IMG/VR virus record: IMGVR_UViG_2740892441_000001
Source of the DNA: a virus
Taxonomy: Duplodnaviria; Heunggongvirae; Uroviricota; Caudoviricetes
DNA length: 64,000 bases
Direction: 5' to 3' (one strand)
Part shown: one piece after another, positions 1,254 through 60,845 of the stretch
How positions within the stretch are numbered: position 1 is the stretch's first letter
Layout: each line of letters opens with the position of its first letter
Program-made: the position numbers and the translations under genes
The notes under the pieces: model-generated
What the model was told of the DNA's origin: nothing
Database searches by the model: none
The model's input: only the letters and a program-made list of their open reading frames with translations

Positions 1254-1622
1254 TCACTCGTTCTCTTGAGTAGATGAGTCCCCATTCCCTCGGGGTTGAT
1301 CTTGCCCGCTTTCTTGGGCTGCGTCTTGATCATAAGTAAGTACTGACTTATTTTCAAGGGTATTTAGATCATTTTTTGGCGGAAAATTCAAGAGATCTTT
1401 ATCAAATTCCTTCTTCATCGCCTCAGTGATGTTCGGGAAAATCTTCTCAATCAGCATTTCCATCTGGTGACGACGTACAGAGTCCGGTGCCTGAAGTAAC
1501 GACAGTTTCTCGGCAACAGAAAATTCATCAGTAAGGCCACGAATATCGAAACTTTCTGGATACGCAATTAAAGAGTGGTCTTCGTCCAGATCTACCCCCA
1601 TCCATTTCGCAACCAGTAGCAT
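1254..1622 (-). CDS. Hypothetical acidic head-module protein
   Basis: 122 aa ORF; start overlaps end of upstream portal-like ORF; no recognisable motif. Confidence 0.35.
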   Translation of the reverse strand: MLLVAKWMGVDLDEDHSLIAYPESFDIRGLTDEFSVAEKLSLLQAPDSVRRHQMEMLIEKIFPNITEAMKKEFDKDLLNFPPKNDLNTLENKSVLTYDQDAAQESGQDQPRGNGDSSTQENE

Positions 1623-55766: not shown

Positions 55767-55979
55767 TTAGTGTATTTTCTTCAACAGGCCCCAAAGTGTT
55801 CCGGCTTTTGTAGTCAGTTTTCCTGTTTCTGGATCGTACATACGCCATTCACGCCGCTGGTGGACGATATACCCATCTTCACGTTCCAGACGCTCAAGAA
55901 TGCCAGGCTGCTTGAAACCCTTAGCACGCCAGTATCCGCTTGTTTTCTCGATTTCCAGACCTGCCAGTGTTAATGCCAT
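55767..55979 (-). CDS. Hypothetical small protein
   Basis: 70 aa ORF overlapping the next gene's stop. Confidence 0.4.
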   Translation of the reverse strand: MALTLAGLEIEKTSGYWRAKGFKQPGILERLEREDGYIVHQRREWRMYDPETGKLTTKAGTLWGLLKKIH

Positions 55980-56314
55980 TATCCAACCTCCTTGCAGTCA
56001 TCGAAAAGGTAGCTTTGCTGAGAAGCGTGCACGCCATAGAAGCCCTTGTATTTGTTGTATACGAAGTGGTCTTCTCCGACGCCGGTTAATTTGCCATTAC
56101 GGTTTGTGAGATATGGGGATGACAATACTCGATCGTCACGCACAACATAGAACTGGTCGCCGCTGTCTACGACCATCGCTCCATATGGTGCTTTTATGAC
56201 GTCGGTAAGAGCGCCATTCTTAACGTCGGCTACAGACATTTCACACTGATAAACAGTGGTGTCGGCCACAACGATCGAGGAAAGGAACAACAGAGCGAAT
56301 GGGATGGCCTTCAT
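55979..56314 (-). CDS. Small secreted protein
   Basis: Signal peptide MKAIPFALLFLSSIVVA. Confidence 0.5.
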   Translation of the reverse strand: MKAIPFALLFLSSIVVADTTVYQCEMSVADVKNGALTDVIKAPYGAMVVDSGDQFYVVRDDRVLSSPYLTNRNGKLTGVGEDHFVYNKYKGFYGVHASQQSYLFDDCKEVG

Positions 56315-56490
56315 GCTGCCACCTCTTTGATTACATCAAATGCTGAATTAAATACGAGCACGATAGCCAAAGCGTTTATGACTACATCGTTCACCGGGGA
56401 AAAGACTTTACGAATGACACCAGTGAAAATGCAGTCGATGACAAAAGCTATTGACACGATGAGTAACAAGTATTCAATAAAAATCTTCAT
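56314..56490 (-). CDS. Small membrane protein (58 aa), translationally coupled
   Basis: Hand-translated MKIFIEYLLLIVSIAFVIDCIFTGVIRKVF...; stop overlaps start of 55979-56314. Confidence 0.3.
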
Positions 56491-57286: not shown

Positions 57287-57333
57287 GTTTTCTTATCCTT
57301 TTAAACAAATTGTTTTCTTAATAAGATAATTGC

Positions 57334-57361
57334 GATAAAAAAGGCGTCCAACTGGACGCCT
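57334..57361 (-). terminator. Rho-independent terminator (AGGCGTCCAGTTGGACGCCT + TTTTTT)
   Basis: Hairpin plus T-run on minus strand after SPFH gene; same stem family at 58481-58500 and 62081-62098. Confidence 0.75.
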
Positions 57362-57377: not shown

Positions 57378-58208
57378 TTATTTCACTGTAATGAAAGGAG
57401 TGTTAGCCCCTTGAGTCATGTACTGCGGTAACTGGCCATTCCATTTATTGATGGCTTCCAGTTCCATAACGTTCGGGTTTTGACGCAGAGCTTCACCGCG
57501 CAGACGAATGGCGTCTGCTTCTGCTTGCGCACGAGCACGGATAGCATCAGCTTCACCATTAGCCTGTTCACGTAGCATATTCGCCTCAGCTTTACGTTGT
57601 TCAACTTCCTGCTGACGTTGCAGAGTACGCTGGTTAGCCGTTACTTTGGCGTTAATAGATTCAATGACAGTTTTTGGGTAATCAGGCTTTCCAACCCATG
57701 ACAGGCTCAGTACCTCAATACCAACCGGAGACATCTCTTTCTGAATATCTTTCAGTGCGTTGTCCAGCAATTGTGCCTTACCACCGTCGATAAATGAGTC
57801 AGTGGTCATACGGCTGGCCAAACGGTTTAGAGAGTCGGCAATTTTCTGACGCAGATCTGATTCGGTGATATCGTCTACGCCTTTGCGATAGGTCTGGAAC
57901 ACCGTAGTTACCTTGTCACGATTAACCAGATACGCAACGCCAATTTTGTGACCAATAGCAGTACCGTCACTCATCTGGAATGTGAACGGCTCGTCGTAGG
58001 TCTTCATTTGTTTGAAGGTCGGGAATACGTAAAGTTCGGTGTTAAGACCTGTCCATTGGCGACCAACGCCAACCACTTCACCAATCCCTTTGTCTTCACC
58101 TAATTTGTTTACTTTGATGCCAACGTATCCAGGCTCAACGCGATCGCAGCCAGTAAGACCCATTGTGCAAATAGCCGCCAGAGCAACTGCAAGTAAACCT
58201 TTCTTCAT
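57378..58208 (-). CDS. SPFH/band-7 (stomatin/prohibitin-like) lipoprotein
   Basis: Lipobox LTGC after signal peptide; SPFH-like core and C-terminal Ala/Arg/Glu/Gln-rich coiled coil. Confidence 0.75.
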   Translation of the reverse strand: MKKGLLAVALAAICTMGLTGCDRVEPGYVGIKVNKLGEDKGIGEVVGVGRQWTGLNTELYVFPTFKQMKTYDEPFTFQMSDGTAIGHKIGVAYLVNRDKVTTVFQTYRKGVDDITESDLRQKIADSLNRLASRMTTDSFIDGGKAQLLDNALKDIQKEMSPVGIEVLSLSWVGKPDYPKTVIESINAKVTANQRTLQRQQEVEQRKAEANMLREQANGEADAIRARAQAEADAIRLRGEALRQNPNVMELEAINKWNGQLPQYMTQGANTPFITVK

Positions 58209-58211
58209 TAC

Positions 58212-58412
58212 TTACTTCTCCTTCGAATTGATGAGTGACTTTAGAAACTTACGACCTGCAATAAACCCGATCACAGGAGCACCAAAAGCAACGATGATTC
58301 CAAGCATTACGGCAATGTCGCTTTTAGCAGAGATCAGCGACGGAACCAGCAAACAGTAGATGAAAACTACAGATAGACCTGTAACTACTGCCATAAGATA
58401 GAGTTTGATCAT
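58212..58412 (-). CDS. Small two-helix membrane protein upstream of the SPFH gene
   Basis: 66 aa hydrophobic; 4 nt upstream of the SPFH gene. Confidence 0.5.
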   Translation of the reverse strand: MIKLYLMAVVTGLSVVFIYCLLVPSLISAKSDIAVMLGIIVAFGAPVIGFIAGRKFLKSLINSKEK

Positions 58413-58471
58413 GTGTTTTCCTATGTGGTTATTGTGTGCTAATGATAAGTAAGTACTTATACATTTTCAAC

Positions 58472-58500
58472 ATACAATAAAGGCGTCCGTTTGGACGCCT
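58472..58500 (-). terminator. Rho-independent terminator (AGGCGTCCAAACGGACGCCT + TTTATTGTAT)
   Basis: Hairpin plus T-rich tail after recombinase gene. Confidence 0.7.
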
Positions 58501-58505
58501 GATAA

Positions 58506-60845
58506 TTAATCTTCTAGTTCTTCTGTTGGTGATGTCTTCTCTCGTCGGTCATCTATCGCCTGTAACGCAGCAATGATTTCAGCCAGTGGCTTCTCCCGAT
58601 ACATCTCGACGATCTGCGATTTGGTGTATTTCTTGTCACCAATTTCAACTCTCCCGCTGGCGTTCTTTGGCAGGTATCCTTCTTCCAGCATGTACTCGAC
58701 GAGCGATTCGATAACGTCGAGGCCACGAGTAGGATCGAAGTAGAATTTCCAGGTGCATTTGCCATACGGTGGTGCAACTTTGTTTTTGATGCACTCTGCG
58801 CCTACGTCCTGACCGATCTTCTCTTTCCCATCCTTCATCACCGATGCACCGAGACGGATGCGCACAGAAGCGTAAAACTTCGGTGAATCGCCGCCTGGAG
58901 ACGTAGTAGGGTCGCCAAACATTACACCGATTTTTGTGCGAACCTGATTCAAGAAGATGATGCAGGCGTTGTATTTGCGTGCCCACAAAGCCAGAGTAGG
59001 GAAGTTCGCACTCGTCGCACGCGCCAGTGCCGTATTGTCGTTCATGTTTAGCTGATCTTTGTCTTTGGCTGTGCCTTCAGCCATCTTTTCGAACTTCTCG
59101 GCTTTGGAGTTCGGAACCATAGACGCAAGAGAGTCAGCCACGATACAGATAGGTGCTGATTCGGGGATAAGCTCTTCATCACGAACCAATTTAAGTATTG
59201 TGCCGATCAACTCTACAGAGTCTTCGAAGGTATCTGGCTGCTTGTATACCCACTGACCGTCATCCTCATCTGCATTCAAACCATTGGCTACAGCCAGGCC
59301 AACGTCAAAACTGTTTTCATGATCGAGGAATACCGCCAGACCATCTTGTTTTTGAGCGGAGATCATCGCTGCTGTTGCAAGGAATGTGTTGTGGCTGATA
59401 ATCCCGTTAGACCAGAAAGAGTGTGTTTCCGGCATCGCTACGTCGAACGTTGGTGCTTCACCTTCCTCAATAGCCACGACTTCGTCGTAGAACAAGTTAG
59501 AGCCAATTACCGCTGCCAGTTGTGCAAACAGATGCTCGTTAAAACGATTCTTTCTGCCAATGAAGGAGACATAGATTTCTCGCAGTTTGTCTATTCCGAC
59601 ACGATCGCCGCGGCCAATAACGTGGTCTACCAGAGCGTAGTCTTCACGGGTGGTCTTGGTGAGCGACTCGTAGAGTGATTTCACTAAGCCGCTGATGTGC
59701 GGAACATAGCCTGAGTAAGTGCGGTCAAAACCAATGTCCCGTTTGGTTGCCACTGATAAACGTGCCGGAGATTCGAAACCAATCGTTGACAGAAAAAGGT
59801 CGTAATTAGAGCCACTGAATGACAGCCGGTAATATGTATTTTCATAACCCGCGACGTGTTTTTCAGAGATAGTTGACGTAATCCCCAGATTCAGGAGCAT
59901 GAGGCGAATTTGCTGTAGCAGCAGCCCACTCGCGCTCACAACCTCAATGCAGCGACCATCATTGACGTGGCATTCCAGCTCAAAGTAGCCGCGAAGGAAT
60001 GCAATTTGAGCCTCGCTATTGGCGCGACGCACACTCAACGGAACCTGCTTGCCAGCAGCTTTCTCATACTCCAGACCATATTCTTTAAAAAGCAGCGAAC
60101 GCACCTCTTTGCTAAACAGCACATGGTCTTCCGAGCCGTTATGTTTTCTCGTAACTGGCATCTTGTCTGATACCAGCGAAATGAGGCGGTAGTACTCATC
60201 CTTGATGAAAGGATCTGTGTTAGAAAAATTCACTGAATTTTCAGAGGCCACGTATCCGTCAGCAATTAAATAGCCCATCAGTTTTGCGATATTGGCATCC
60301 AGGTGCTGATCGCCGAATTGATGTGTGCCAACCATTGAAGGAATCGTGTCGCCTACACTGATTTTTTCAGCATGTCGCCAGACGACATTACCTAAGTCGT
60401 CAACCACACGGATTGGGTGACGGAACGTAGCCTCGATATAACCGCCTGATGCCAGCTTAATACGCTTGAATTTGCGACGGTTGTTCCATGTCAGGTGTGA
60501 GGTCTTCTCTATCACGCCATTTTCATTGATGAGTCCAACGTTATGCTCTACATCGCGAGTAGTGCATGTCGCTTTGTACCCTTCAATCTCAAACAACTCT
60601 TTCACTGTTACCATTCCACGCTCCGTCAGCAGCATGGTGTCTGCGGTAACACATTTCCCCGCACTTGGAGGACCGAATACTTCGACGATACGACCACATG
60701 GGAAACCGCCATCGTAACGACCGGAAATCGCTTTGTTTAACGGAGGAAAGCCTGTGTCAATCCAATGAGTTACTTTCTGAATTTCGTCGTTGCTACCGAT
60801 TTTCTTTTTCAGAGCAAGTGCCAGTGCGGATTTTCCTTTTGCCAT
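58506..60845 (-). CDS. RecA/UvsX-like recombinase containing an intein in the Walker A P-loop
   Basis: 779 aa; extein reads FGPPSAGK | C...(422 aa)...SHN | TFLATAAM; removing residues 65-486 leaves ~357 aa, RecA-sized. Confidence 0.88.
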   Translation of the reverse strand: MAKGKSALALALKKKIGSNDEIQKVTHWIDTGFPPLNKAISGRYDGGFPCGRIVEVFGPPSAGKCVTADTMLLTERGMVTVKELFEIEGYKATCTTRDVEHNVGLINENGVIEKTSHLTWNNRRKFKRIKLASGGYIEATFRHPIRVVDDLGNVVWRHAEKISVGDTIPSMVGTHQFGDQHLDANIAKLMGYLIADGYVASENSVNFSNTDPFIKDEYYRLISLVSDKMPVTRKHNGSEDHVLFSKEVRSLLFKEYGLEYEKAAGKQVPLSVRRANSEAQIAFLRGYFELECHVNDGRCIEVVSASGLLLQQIRLMLLNLGITSTISEKHVAGYENTYYRLSFSGSNYDLFLSTIGFESPARLSVATKRDIGFDRTYSGYVPHISGLVKSLYESLTKTTREDYALVDHVIGRGDRVGIDKLREIYVSFIGRKNRFNEHLFAQLAAVIGSNLFYDEVVAIEEGEAPTFDVAMPETHSFWSNGIISHNTFLATAAMISAQKQDGLAVFLDHENSFDVGLAVANGLNADEDDGQWVYKQPDTFEDSVELIGTILKLVRDEELIPESAPICIVADSLASMVPNSKAEKFEKMAEGTAKDKDQLNMNDNTALARATSANFPTLALWARKYNACIIFLNQVRTKIGVMFGDPTTSPGGDSPKFYASVRIRLGASVMKDGKEKIGQDVGAECIKNKVAPPYGKCTWKFYFDPTRGLDVIESLVEYMLEEGYLPKNASGRVEIGDKKYTKSQIVEMYREKPLAEIIAALQAIDDRREKTSPTEELED
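59388..60653 (-). mobile_element. Intein (422 aa) with LAGLIDADG homing-endonuclease domain inside the recombinase gene
   Basis: N-terminal Cys after GPPSAGK, C-terminal His-Asn followed by Thr; LAGLIDADG-type motifs LMGYLIADGYV and IAFLRGYFELE. Confidence 0.8.

What the first reader, a model, noticed from the sequence alone, without database searches (positions are those of the whole stretch)
57378..58412. SPFH/band-7 lipoprotein with an upstream small membrane partner
The two-gene arrangement mirrors bacterial SPFH-NfeD-type pairs. In a phage or plasmid context such membrane-scaffold proteins are candidates for superinfection exclusion or membrane-associated abortive infection.
Basis: inference. 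Interest (0 to 1): 0.5.

Follow-up and report, generated by a model that had tools for sequence, protein, structure and literature searches.

The report
Phage SPFH lipoprotein with two-helix partner
A phage-plasmid carries a self-contained two-gene unit, a tiny two-helix membrane protein plus a lipid-anchored scaffold protein of the SPFH family, and this same pair recurs in very different temperate and lytic phages, although nobody has shown what it does.

Summary
On the minus strand, 58212-58412 encodes a 66-aa two-helix membrane protein. Three bases downstream, 57378-58208 encodes a 276-aa SPFH/Band-7 protein with a lipoprotein signal (LTGC, Asp at +2). The window is an SSU5/Cyrano-like phage-plasmid.

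The pair is a deeply conserved module. A partner profile hit exactly one ORF in 166 of 174 phage loci, always on the SPFH strand and directly upstream in 156. These loci include N4-like, rV5-like and T7-like lytic phages and P2-like and lambdoid prophages. No other neighbour is conserved.

The partner is not NfeD: it has no OB-fold, no Pfam family and no PDB match. Its conserved P-x-L-I-S loop is predicted to face the periplasm, where the SPFH domain sits. The SPFH model best matches HflK/C, prohibitin and erlin cages.

Here the unit has a conserved sigma-70-like promoter and flanking hairpins. It lies about 30 kb from the lysis cassette of the near-identical phage Cyrano. Neither protein matches a known defence system.

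My best reading is a two-subunit periplasm-facing SPFH scaffold used during infection, with FtsH-type membrane quality control as the leading target. Superinfection exclusion remains a live rival. I found no experimental study of function.

The parts
58481..58500 (-). Upstream hairpin AGGCGTCC-N4-GGACGCCT, directly after the RecA-like gene stop. It is terminator-like and insulates the cassette from the upstream operon.
   Evidence: Found by the terminator scan. It is one of only two copies of this 8-bp-stem hairpin in the 64 kb, against 0 expected. The stem is kept by a compensatory change in relative L036.
58442..58470 (-). Sigma-70-like promoter TTGAAA-17 nt-TATCAT. The spacer contains the perfect 10-bp palindrome TAAGTACTTA, a possible operator.
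   Evidence: Best promoter-like site in 55.5-62.5 kb, matching 10 of 12 positions. The 29-nt block is invariant apart from two positions across six SSU5-like lineages (window, L014, L027, SSU5, L030, L036) whose flanks differ. The palindrome recurs at 14 sites against 1.2 expected.
58417..58422 (-). Ribosome-binding-site-like AGGAAA, 4 nt upstream of the partner ATG.
   Evidence: Read directly from the sequence.
58212..58412 (-). Partner gene: a 66-aa two-helix inner-membrane hairpin, predicted N-in/C-in, with the conserved periplasmic turn P24-S-L-I-S28-A-K-S-D and a K/R-rich cytoplasmic tail.
   Evidence: ORF; phrog_1130; two hydrophobic segments; AlphaFold2 two-helix hairpin; motif and charge distribution in 95 unique homologues; P24 invariant and S28 and G38 nearly invariant in 43 diverse members.
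58149..58208 (-). Lipoprotein signal peptide of the SPFH protein (residues 1-20), including the first three lipobox residues L-T-G.
   Evidence: Read from the sequence. The lipobox Cys is invariant in 13 diverse phage homologues, and a lipobox is present in about 168 of 174 loci.
58143..58148 (-). Codons for the lipid-modified Cys21 and for Asp22. Asp at +2 is the E. coli inner-membrane retention signal.
   Evidence: Read from the sequence. The +2 residue distribution across the family is. The sorting rule itself is established knowledge and was not tested here.
57378..58208 (-). SPFH/Band-7 lipoprotein gene (276 aa): SPFH1 beta region about 20-95, SPFH2 about 97-176, one long helix 179-243, and a conserved C-terminal W-x-G-x-x-P ... 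PF-x-x-K tail.
   Evidence: Pfam Band_7; phrog_200; AlphaFold2 model at pLDDT 78.7; Foldseek full-length matches to HflC/HflK, prohibitin and erlin at E about 1e-13; conserved columns.
57333..57361 (-). Downstream intrinsic-terminator-like hairpin AGGCGTCCAGTTGGACGCCT followed by TTTTTTAT. This is the second copy of the flanking hairpin.
   Evidence: Terminator scan; pattern search; sequence.

Best explanation
The two genes encode the two subunits of one periplasm-facing SPFH membrane scaffold.

(1) The 276-aa protein is exported, lipid-modified at Cys21 and, because of Asp at +2, probably kept on the outer face of the inner membrane. Its SPFH1/SPFH2 domains and long helix would assemble into a ring or cage like HflK/C, prohibitin or erlin. 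The fold and the lipobox are shown. The oligomer and the membrane location are inferred.

(2) The 66-aa protein is a two-helix hairpin with both ends in the cytoplasm. Its only conserved feature, the P-x-L-I-S-A turn, sits at the periplasmic surface next to the lipid anchor and SPFH1. It is made in step with the SPFH protein: start and stop codons abut or overlap in most lineages, and the two are fused in one. It would supply the in-membrane 'fence' that HflK/C provide with their own transmembrane helices. This interaction is inferred.

(3) In this phage-plasmid the pair is an insulated transcription unit of hairpin, sigma-70-like promoter, two genes and terminator.

(4) Biological role, by inference only. 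The same module is kept under purifying selection in lytic and temperate phages of many bacterial phyla, nearly always among early or middle replication and recombination genes. I therefore read it as a host-takeover accessory that acts during infection on a conserved inner-membrane component. The most likely action is to mimic or compete with HflK/C-type control of the FtsH membrane protease and of membrane-protein quality control.
For: - Fold: Band_7 domain at 106 bits. The AlphaFold2 model has SPFH1, SPFH2 and a 65-residue helix. The best full-length structural matches are HflC/HflK (7vhq, 9cz2, 7wi3), prohibitin (8rrh) and erlin1/2, all at E about 1e-13, ahead of the NfeD-partnered QmcA (8z5g, 1.7e-7). 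To my knowledge those three top families all face away from the cytoplasm and work with membrane proteolysis.
- Lipid anchor: the lipobox Cys is invariant.
- Partner topology: mean K/R counts are 0.69 in the N-terminus, 0.58 in the loop and 4.10 in the tail, and the model is a two-helix hairpin.
- Pairing: one partner hit per locus in 166 of 174 loci, on the same strand, directly upstream in 156; partner present in all members of 40 of 44 SPFH clusters at 70% identity. In 37 of 65 bacterial-genome loci the partner again lies on the SPFH strand, directly upstream in 34.
- Coupling: the partner stop and SPFH start lie within 30 nt in 30 of 40 lineages and overlap in most.
- Natural fusion: in L149 a single ORF reads two TM helices, a K/R linker, the signal peptide with lipobox, then SPFH. 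This only makes topological sense with the predicted N-in/C-in partner.
- Two-gene module: no other neighbour family is shared among 50 representative loci.
- Timing by position: the module sits in replication or recombination regions of N4-like, rV5-like, FelixO1-like, T7-like and Vibrio phages and next to the RecA-like gene here.
- Local regulation: conserved promoter and flanking hairpins.
Against: - No experiment bears on function. The papers I found offer only the HflK/C analogy as speculation (PMC8540360, PMC4936722, PMC13239085).
- Sequence similarity to HflK/C is marginal: NCBIfam HflC 30 bits against a 134-bit cut-off and PDB HflK at E = 0.007.
- There is only one SPFH gene, not a K/C pair, and no transmembrane helix of its own.
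- The +2 residue is Asp only in some lineages. Most clusters have Cys-Ser-Lys, and N4-like, rV5-like and FelixO1-like homologues have Tyr, Glu and Asn, so an outer-membrane location is possible for much of the family.
- The co-evolution signal between the two proteins is weak (Mantel r = 0.12, 104 of 2000 permutations at least as high).
- An identical SPFH works with partners only 73% identical.
- Three lytic phage lineages (TL, phiCbK, phiEa104) have the lipoprotein without a detectable partner.
- An oligomeric cage and any contact with FtsH could not be modelled.
Confidence: 0.4

Rival explanations
1. Superinfection exclusion at the inner membrane. The pair is made early in infection, or from the resident phage-plasmid, and blocks genome entry of later phages at the periplasmic face of the inner membrane. 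This would be analogous to T4 Imm (a small two-helix inner-membrane protein) together with Sp, or to lipoprotein exclusion factors such as T5 Llp and Streptococcus phage Ltp.
For: - The predicted location is right: a periplasmic lipoprotein plus an inner-membrane hairpin.
- The position is early or middle in lytic phages, like T4 imm.
- In this lineage the unit has its own conserved sigma-70-like promoter and terminators, a moron-like layout that could be expressed from the plasmid prophage.
- The cassette is retained intact in Yersinia pestis pMT1.
- In the N4-like phage Moo19 it directly follows a gene annotated as similar to the P22 gene 17 exclusion-related protein.
- Its patchy, accessory distribution within phage genera fits a competition gene (PMC8540360).
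Against: - Neither protein matches any PADLOC model.
- No partner member matches the T4 Imm Pfam family.
- The SPFH protein is 35-71% identical across phages of Enterobacteria, Vibrio, Burkholderia and Desulfovibrio and across uncultured metagenome phages, and partner-linked copies sit in Leptospira and Bacteroidota genomes. These phages have quite different entry machines. To my knowledge exclusion proteins are usually narrow and fast-evolving.
- In P2/186-like and lambdoid prophages it sits inside early lytic operons rather than as a lysogen-expressed gene.
Confidence: 0.25
2. Membrane-integrity keeper or counter-defence. The scaffold stabilises or reseals the inner membrane during the latent period. 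It would act after the phage's own DNA injection, or against host abortive-infection effectors that depolarise or perforate the membrane, and so protect the burst.
For: - It is present in many strictly lytic phages, in host-takeover positions such as between T7-like DNA polymerase and exonuclease, where anti-host accessory genes cluster.
- SPFH proteins take part in membrane surveillance and repair with PspA in Bacillus (PMC8581546).
- A need common to all phages of double-membraned bacteria would explain the broad host range.
Against: - There is no direct evidence.
- The Bacillus SPFH protein in PMC8581546 links cytoplasmic PspA to the membrane, which puts it on the cytoplasmic side, whereas this protein is predicted to be periplasmic.
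- The idea explains neither the specific conserved partner loop nor why most phages do without the module.
Confidence: 0.15
3. Lysis-related function. The 66-aa protein would be a holin- or antiholin-like pore former gated by the periplasmic SPFH lipoprotein, or the pair would be an unusual inner-membrane plus lipoprotein spanin, setting lysis timing.
For: - The partner has the gross features of a class II holin: small, two transmembrane helices and a basic C-terminal tail.
- An upstream inner-membrane protein gene overlapping a lipoprotein gene resembles two-component spanin gene layouts (spanin architectures as described in PMC3556154).
- The lipoprotein has a long helix.
Against: - In Cyrano, which is 98.8% identical here, holin, endolysin, Rz and Rz1 are annotated at 26.7-28.2 kb, about 30 kb from the cassette.
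- None of the 13 annotated loci has the pair next to lysis genes.
- No holin Pfam family is matched consistently: 1 of 43 members, at E = 0.043.
- The inner-membrane protein has no periplasmic domain, unlike an i-spanin, and the lipoprotein is about five times the size of an o-spanin.
Confidence: 0.05
4. Lysogenic-conversion surface or vesicle lipoprotein that benefits the bacterial host in animals, as reported for the prophage-borne HflK/C-like Pmorf0222 of Pasteurella multocida.
For: PMC9872710 reports a prophage SPFH (HflK/C-like) protein that is released in outer-membrane vesicles, activates TLR1/2 and contributes to virulence in mice. The cassette is common on plasmids of E. coli, Salmonella and Yersinia pestis.
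Against:
- TLR2 activation is, to my knowledge, a generic property of bacterial lipoproteins.
- The module is widespread in lytic phages and in phages from environmental metagenomes, and copies occur in genomes of environmental bacteria such as Dyella, Saprospirales and Leptolyngbya, where an animal-virulence role makes no sense.
Confidence: 0.05

Closest known systems
HflK/HflC, the E. coli periplasm-facing SPFH cage around the FtsH protease
   Same: SPFH1/SPFH2 plus a long helix, with full-length structural matches at E about 1e-13. The bulk of the protein is on the periplasmic side of the inner membrane (predicted here). It is the only PDB sequence match and the best NCBIfam match.
   Different: About 16-18% identity, far below the family cut-offs (30 against 134 bits). 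It is anchored by a lipid rather than an N-terminal transmembrane helix. There is one SPFH gene rather than a K/C pair. It has a dedicated 66-aa partner. It is encoded by phages. Any link to FtsH is untested.
SPFH-NfeD operon pairs (QmcA-YbbJ, YqiK-YqiJ, FloT-YuaF, PH1511-PH1510)
   Same: An SPFH gene is transcribed together with an adjacent small membrane-protein gene, so the partner is plausibly a stoichiometric part of the scaffold.
   Different: The partner has no NfeD OB-fold domain, no Pfam family and no similarity to PDB chains, a set that includes the QmcA-YbbJ entry 8z5g matched by the SPFH model. The SPFH domain is exported here, whereas to my knowledge NfeD-partnered SPFH proteins face the cytoplasm.
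Prohibitin and erlin complexes (eukaryotic SPFH cages that face away from the cytoplasm)
   Same: They are equally good structural matches. One phage homologue is annotated with the conserved domain cd03401 SPFH_prohibitin. The orientation is the same, towards the space equivalent to the periplasm.
   Different: They are eukaryotic, anchored by transmembrane segments and hetero-oligomeric, with no small hairpin partner.
T4 Imm and Sp, and lipoprotein exclusion factors (T5 Llp, Streptococcus phage Ltp)
   Same: These are early-expressed small inner-membrane and periplasm-exposed phage proteins. Imm is likewise a small two-helix membrane protein, and Llp and Ltp are lipoproteins.
   Different: There is no sequence relationship: no Imm Pfam hit in 43 partner members. 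Those proteins are not SPFH proteins, and this family is far more widely conserved.
PHROG families phrog_200 ('lipoprotein') and phrog_1130 ('membrane protein', moron/host-takeover category)
   Same: Both proteins are full-length members (3e-108 and 1.3e-25), so the genes themselves are already catalogued.
   Different: The catalogue records neither the obligate pairing nor any function.

Membership tests
SPFH / Band 7 superfamily (Pfam PF01145) | Band_7 domain above the curated cut-off | tested here: met
   106.2 bits against a 23.6-bit cut-off, residues 23-209.
SPFH / Band 7 superfamily (Pfam PF01145) | SPFH1/SPFH2 alpha-beta fold followed by a long coiled-coil helix | tested here: met
   AlphaFold2 model at pLDDT 78.7 with strands 20-95, alpha/beta region 97-176 and helix 179-243. 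Foldseek probability is 1.00 to HflK/C, prohibitin, erlin, stomatin and flotillin.
SPFH / Band 7 superfamily (Pfam PF01145) | Assembly into a large membrane-attached ring or cage | not testable with these tools
   Only single chains could be modelled. The C-terminal 250-276, which closes the cage in known structures, is conserved but has low confidence in the monomer model.
HflK / HflC (FtsH modulators) | Score above the NCBIfam equivalog cut-offs | tested here: not met
   HflC 30.2 bits against 134.4, and HflK 18.7 bits against 159.4.
HflK / HflC (FtsH modulators) | N-terminal transmembrane anchor and a paired K and C subunit | tested here: not met
   The anchor is a lipobox signal peptide. 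There is a single SPFH gene in the cassette, and no second SPFH family appears among neighbours.
HflK / HflC (FtsH modulators) | Physical and functional association with FtsH | not testable with these tools
   Needs co-purification or substrate-stability assays.
SPFH-NfeD operon | Partner carries the NfeD C-terminal OB-fold domain (Pfam NfeD) | tested here: not met
   The partner is 66 aa, all of it two helices and a tail. There is no Pfam hit at E <= 0.01, no NfeD among matches at E <= 1 in 43 members, and no PDB match, although the PDB holds the QmcA-YbbJ entry 8z5g.
SPFH-NfeD operon | Adjacent, co-directional membrane-protein gene co-transcribed with the SPFH gene | tested here: met
   3-nt gap in the window. 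The partner is directly upstream in 156 of 174 loci.
Bacterial lipoprotein | Signal peptide ending in a lipobox [LVI][ASTVI][GAS]C | tested here: met
   MKK-GLLAVALAAICTMG-LTG-C21. The Cys is invariant in 13 diverse homologues, and a lipobox is present in about 168 of 174 loci.
Bacterial lipoprotein | Inner-membrane retention signal (Asp at +2 in Enterobacteria) | tested here: inconclusive
   Met in the window (C-D-R) and in the enterobacterial temperate cluster, but most clusters have C-S-K. The actual location needs fractionation.
Known anti-phage defence systems (PADLOC-DB v2) | Match to any defence-system protein model | tested here: not met
   No family at E <= 0.1 for either protein or for the four downstream genes.
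T4 Imm superinfection immunity family | Match to the Pfam Imm_superinfect model | tested here: not met
   Absent from the Pfam matches of 43 partner members at E <= 1.
Two-component spanin (Rz/Rz1 type) | i-spanin with one TM helix and a periplasmic coiled coil, a small o-spanin lipoprotein, and a location in the lysis cassette | tested here: not met
   The inner-membrane protein has only a roughly 9-residue periplasmic turn, and the lipoprotein is 276 aa. Rz and Rz1 are annotated elsewhere in Cyrano.
Moron (autonomous promoter-gene-terminator insert in a phage genome) | Own promoter and terminator flanking the insert | tested here: met
   A conserved TTGAAA-17-TATCAT promoter-like site and two flanking hairpins, the downstream one followed by a T-run. 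These are consensus matches, not proof of activity.
Moron (autonomous promoter-gene-terminator insert in a phage genome) | Expression from the repressed prophage | not testable with these tools
   Needs RNA-seq of the lysogen. The promoter spacer contains a palindrome repeated across the genome that could be an operator.

The most novel reading that the evidence does not exclude
Phages of double-membraned bacteria share a portable 'split HflK/C': a lipid-anchored periplasmic SPFH cage whose in-membrane wall is a separate 66-aa hairpin. They would use it to capture or fence off a conserved host inner-membrane machine during infection, either FtsH or another quality-control or transport complex. 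Equally novel, they might use it to shield the inner membrane against pore-forming abortive-infection effectors. Either way it would be a new class of phage host-takeover or counter-defence device built on a membrane scaffold.
Probability: 0.25. Interest if true: 0.7.

Novelty: new variant of a known kind. Interest (0 to 1): 0.45.

Why it matters
SPFH scaffolds (HflK/C, prohibitin, stomatin, flotillin) are now understood as cages that enclose membrane clients, but what phage-encoded versions do is unknown. Papers that mention them say so explicitly.

This work shows three things:
- The phage lipoprotein form is nearly always tied to one unnamed 55-90-aa hairpin protein: at least 640 clusters at 50% identity, all labelled hypothetical.
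- The two genes travel together as a unit between unrelated lytic and temperate phages.
- The module lies among replication genes, not lysis genes.

Together these turn a vague annotation into a defined two-protein system that can be cloned and tested. The cassette is common: 325 of 5,426 complete E. coli genomes, mostly on phage-plasmids of about 110 kb, and also Yersinia pestis pMT1. If it controls FtsH or blocks phage entry, it bears on lysis-lysogeny decisions, on phage competition and on phage therapy with N4-like and rV5-like phages that carry it.

Tried and rejected
- NfeD identity of the partner. Rejected: no OB-fold, no Pfam hit and no PDB hit.
- Known defence system. No PADLOC hit.
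- Spanin or holin role. Rejected on position and architecture.
- Co-evolution test. The Mantel correlation of pairwise identities of the two proteins over 41 lineages was weak and inconclusive (r = 0.12, 104 of 2000 permutations).
- Structure of a partner-SPFH fusion, to look for a contact.
- Search for other conserved neighbours. None beyond the pair; two apparent 'families' were antisense shadow ORFs inside the SPFH gene.
- Second protein-database search with a diverse SPFH alignment. It returned only relatives at 65% identity or more and added little.
- Literature. Eight searches and six papers read found no functional study of a phage SPFH lipoprotein. The phiCbK genome paper does not discuss its band-7 lipoprotein, and the Pseudomonas SPFH survey does not mention phages.
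- The flanking hairpin as a mobility signature. Both copies occur only in the Cyrano-like lineage, and other relatives keep one, so it is not a general boundary of the module.
- Timing from the promoter motif. A second full copy lies upstream of a structural-region gene, so the motif does not assign an expression class.
Full report
**What is in the window.**
On the minus strand, ORF 58212-58412 encodes 66 aa and ORF 57378-58208 encodes 276 aa. They are in the same frame, separated only by TAA-GTA.

The larger protein starts MKKGLLAVALAAICTMGLTGC|DR, a lipoprotein signal peptide with lipobox L-T-G-C. It matches Pfam Band_7 at 106 bits against a 23.6-bit cut-off and phrog_200 'lipoprotein' at 3e-108.

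The smaller protein has two hydrophobic segments and is modelled as two helices, 2-28 and 32-65. It matches phrog_1130 'membrane protein' and no Pfam family.

The region is 98.8% identical to Escherichia phage Cyrano, an SSU5-like phage-plasmid. The neighbours are a RecA-like gene that carries an intein, a 5'-3' exonuclease, a DUF7238 gene and RepA.

**The pair is a conserved module, not a local coincidence.**
The same small gene sits directly upstream of the SPFH gene in SSU5 and in the P2/186-like phage P88. It also does so in the N4-like phage Moo19, where the two genes are annotated as similar to N4 gp19 and gp20. The same holds in a Vibrio phage, a Burkholderia phage and the T7-like Desulfovibrio phage ProddE. 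In the rV5-like phage 4MG it lies one gene away.

I built a profile from eight partner sequences and refined it once. It hit exactly one ORF in 166 of 174 phage loci among 13,347 ORFs on both strands. The hit was always on the SPFH strand: directly upstream in 156 loci, further upstream in 7 and downstream in 3.

Many loci are close relatives, so I also counted by SPFH clusters at 70% identity. In 40 of 44 clusters every member has the partner. RefSeq does not annotate the partner in phiP27, but the ORF is there at L004 2816-3004.

In 65 loci from bacterial genomes, 37 have the partner on the SPFH strand, directly upstream in 34. Hosts include Enterobacterales, Xanthomonadales, Cupriavidus, Leptospira and Bacteroidota.

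No other gene family is shared among 50 representative loci, so the mobile unit is just these two genes.

The partner family comprises at least 640 clusters at 50% identity, and nearly all of the 150 best hits listed are 52-90 aa. Every named homologue is 'hypothetical protein', and none carries a Pfam domain.

**How the two proteins fit together (inference from sequence).**
Across 95 unique partners, the mean K/R count is 0.69 in the N-terminus, 0.58 in the inter-helix turn and 4.10 in the C-terminal tail. By the positive-inside rule both ends are cytoplasmic and the turn is periplasmic.

That turn carries the only conserved motif, P-x-L-[IV]-S-[AS]-x-[SD]. P24 is invariant, and S28 and G38 are nearly invariant.

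The SPFH domain is exported and lipid-anchored. Its Cys is invariant in 13 diverse homologues, and a lipobox is present in about 168 of 174 loci. The conserved turn and the membrane-proximal end of the SPFH protein are therefore on the same face of the same membrane.

The partner stop and the SPFH start lie within 30 nt in 30 of 40 lineages and overlap in most of them. This is typical of translational coupling and equimolar subunits.

In one metagenomic phage (L149) the stop codon is missing. A single ORF then reads two TM helices, a K/R linker, the signal peptide with lipobox, and SPFH. That arrangement is only coherent with the predicted N-in/C-in topology, and signal peptidase II would separate the two parts again.

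Some evidence argues against a tight, specific interface. The Mantel correlation between the two proteins' divergence is weak (r = 0.12). An SPFH protein identical to the window's (100% aa, 99% nt) is found with a partner only 73% identical, because a recombination junction falls at the gene border.

**What the SPFH protein resembles.**
The AlphaFold2 model (pLDDT 78.7) has a beta-rich SPFH1, an alpha/beta SPFH2 and one long helix, 179-243. The conserved C-terminal tail has low confidence in the monomer.

Foldseek against the PDB gives full-length matches at E about 1e-13 to HflC/HflK, prohibitin and erlin1/2. Stomatin, flotillin and the NfeD-partnered QmcA rank lower.

By sequence the relationship to HflK/C is marginal, so this is a distinct SPFH subfamily. 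To my knowledge, the three best-matching families are the SPFH cages that face away from the cytoplasm and cooperate with membrane proteolysis (FtsH, the m-AAA protease and ER-associated degradation).

**Membrane sorting is unresolved.**
Asp at +2 predicts inner-membrane retention in E. coli. It is present in the window and in the enterobacterial temperate-phage cluster. Most clusters have Cys-Ser-Lys, and the N4-like, rV5-like and FelixO1-like homologues have Tyr, Glu and Asn.

**Local regulation.**
The cassette is bracketed by the only two copies in the 64 kb of the hairpin AGGCGTCC-N4-GGACGCCT, against 0 expected. The downstream copy is followed by a T-run.

Between the upstream hairpin and the partner gene lies the best sigma-70-like site of the region, TTGAAA-17-TATCAT. 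The whole 29-nt block is conserved across SSU5-like lineages whose flanks diverge, and the upstream stem shows a compensatory change in one relative.

The spacer holds a perfect 10-bp palindrome, TAAGTACTTA. With up to one mismatch it occurs 14 times in the window against 1.2 expected. A second full copy of the promoter lies at 1329-1357, upstream of a structural-region gene. This looks like a phage-wide promoter or operator family, but it does not tell when the cassette is expressed.

**Where the module sits elsewhere.**
- In lytic phages it lies among DNA polymerase, ligase, exonuclease and RNA polymerase genes.
- In P88-like prophages it lies in the early operon between cox and the replication gene.
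- In phiP27 it lies in the leftward operon next to xis and int.
- In Cyrano the holin, endolysin, Rz and Rz1 genes lie about 30 kb away.

The tblastn search found SPFH homologues in 413 phage records, many of them strictly lytic.

The cassette occurs in 325 of 5,426 complete E. coli genomes, at 240 places on plasmids and 101 on chromosomes. It also occurs on Salmonella, Enterobacter and Citrobacter plasmids and on Yersinia pestis pMT1.

**Interpretation.**
At the structural level I am fairly confident that this is a two-subunit, periplasm-facing SPFH scaffold in which the small hairpin replaces the transmembrane helices that HflK/C carry themselves.

At the level of biological role I can only rank hypotheses:

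| Hypothesis | Confidence | Main reasons |
|---|---|---|
| Host-takeover function on a conserved inner-membrane target, with FtsH-type quality control as the leading candidate | about 0.4 for the whole statement | Structural kinship and orientation; conservation across phyla; presence in lytic phages; positions among replication genes |
| Superinfection exclusion during infection or from the plasmid prophage | about 0.25 | Location and the moron-like unit fit; no PADLOC or Imm match; unusually broad conservation argues against it |
| Membrane stabilisation or counter-defence | about 0.15 | Lytic-phage presence and host-takeover positions fit; no direct evidence |
| Lysis control | about 0.05 | Partner resembles a class II holin; position and architecture argue against it |
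| Virulence lipoprotein | about 0.05 | One report in Pasteurella (PMC9872710); lytic and environmental phages argue against it |

**Literature.**
The papers found only speculate. They propose an HflK/C analogy with lysogeny control, and note that lytic phages also carry the gene so the role 'is still not clear' (PMC8540360, PMC4936722). One N4-like genome paper guesses adsorption or DNA entry (PMC13239085). One paper reports a prophage HflK/C-like protein of Pasteurella as a virulence factor (PMC9872710). None mentions the partner.

**Verdict.**
The genes are real and already catalogued in PHROGs, and the SPFH fold is ordinary. What I did not find described is:
- the near-obligate pairing with an unnamed hairpin protein;
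- the periplasmic lipoprotein format;
- the spread of this two-gene unit across lytic and temperate phages.

I rate it a new variant of a known kind, of moderate interest and directly testable.

Noticed in passing
window 58506-60845 (-): The RecA-like recombinase is 779 aa because an intein with a LAGLIDADG homing-endonuclease domain is inserted at about residues 73-486 (Pfam Intein_splicing, LAGLIDADG_3 and a split RecA match). The SSU5 orthologue is only 1077 nt. The extra DNA may explain why some close relatives align in several pieces here.
   Followed up: partly
window, 14 sites including 1337, 8131/8135, 16431, 29490, 42284/42288, 58450 and 63236: A palindromic motif TAAGTACTTA (core of ...AGTACTTACTTATnAT) is strongly over-represented: 14 sites against 1.2 expected with up to one mismatch, and 21 against 0.67 for the 18-mer with up to four substitutions. 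Several copies lie 30-45 nt upstream of start codons, for example before the gp32-like SSB gene, and overlap -10-like hexamers. This could be a phage-wide operator or promoter family of SSU5-like phage-plasmids.
   Followed up: partly
window 1329-1357 (-): A second near-complete copy of the SPFH-cassette promoter (TTGAAAAT...AGTACTTACTTATGAT, 3 mismatches in 29) lies inside the end of a 122-aa ORF. It is upstream of a 295-aa glutamate/lysine-rich ORF next to a portal-like gene.
   Followed up: no
L149 2782-3846 (IMGVR_UViG_2645727527_000001): A natural in-frame fusion of the partner and the SPFH lipoprotein precursor in one 354-aa ORF: two TM helices, a K/R linker, the signal peptide with lipobox, then SPFH. 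It is a single case and could be a sequencing error.
   Followed up: partly
window 58212-58505 compared with L014 3700-3997: There is a recombination mosaic junction at the partner/SPFH border. Against the CMS-2020a-like lineage, the intergenic region and partner gene are 80-82% identical, while the SPFH gene and everything downstream are 99% identical.
   Followed up: yes
L004 2816-3004 (phage phiP27, NC_003356): The partner gene is present but not annotated in the RefSeq record. It overlaps the start of the annotated lipoprotein gene L05.
   Followed up: yes
L240 4041-5075 (Yersinia pestis pMT1, NC_017158): The plague plasmid pMT1 keeps the intact two-gene cassette in the same RecA ... RepA context as SSU5. 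In all, 63 Yersinia plasmid records match.
   Followed up: partly
L007, L008, L009 and L158-L161: Pseudomonas phage TL, Caulobacter phage phiCbK and Erwinia phage phiEa104 have the SPFH lipoprotein but no detectable partner. Their upstream genes are a 72-aa protein with a C-terminal TM helix, a 116-aa three-TM protein and a 73-aa soluble helical protein. Four metagenomic loci without the partner also lack the lipobox and have an N-terminal TM anchor instead.
   Followed up: partly
window 55979-56490 (-): Downstream on the same strand are two more small envelope-directed genes: a 59-aa hydrophobic protein (56311-56490, phrog_2535) and a 111-aa protein with an apparent cleavable signal peptide (55979-56314, phrog_2077). 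Neither has a known function.
   Followed up: no
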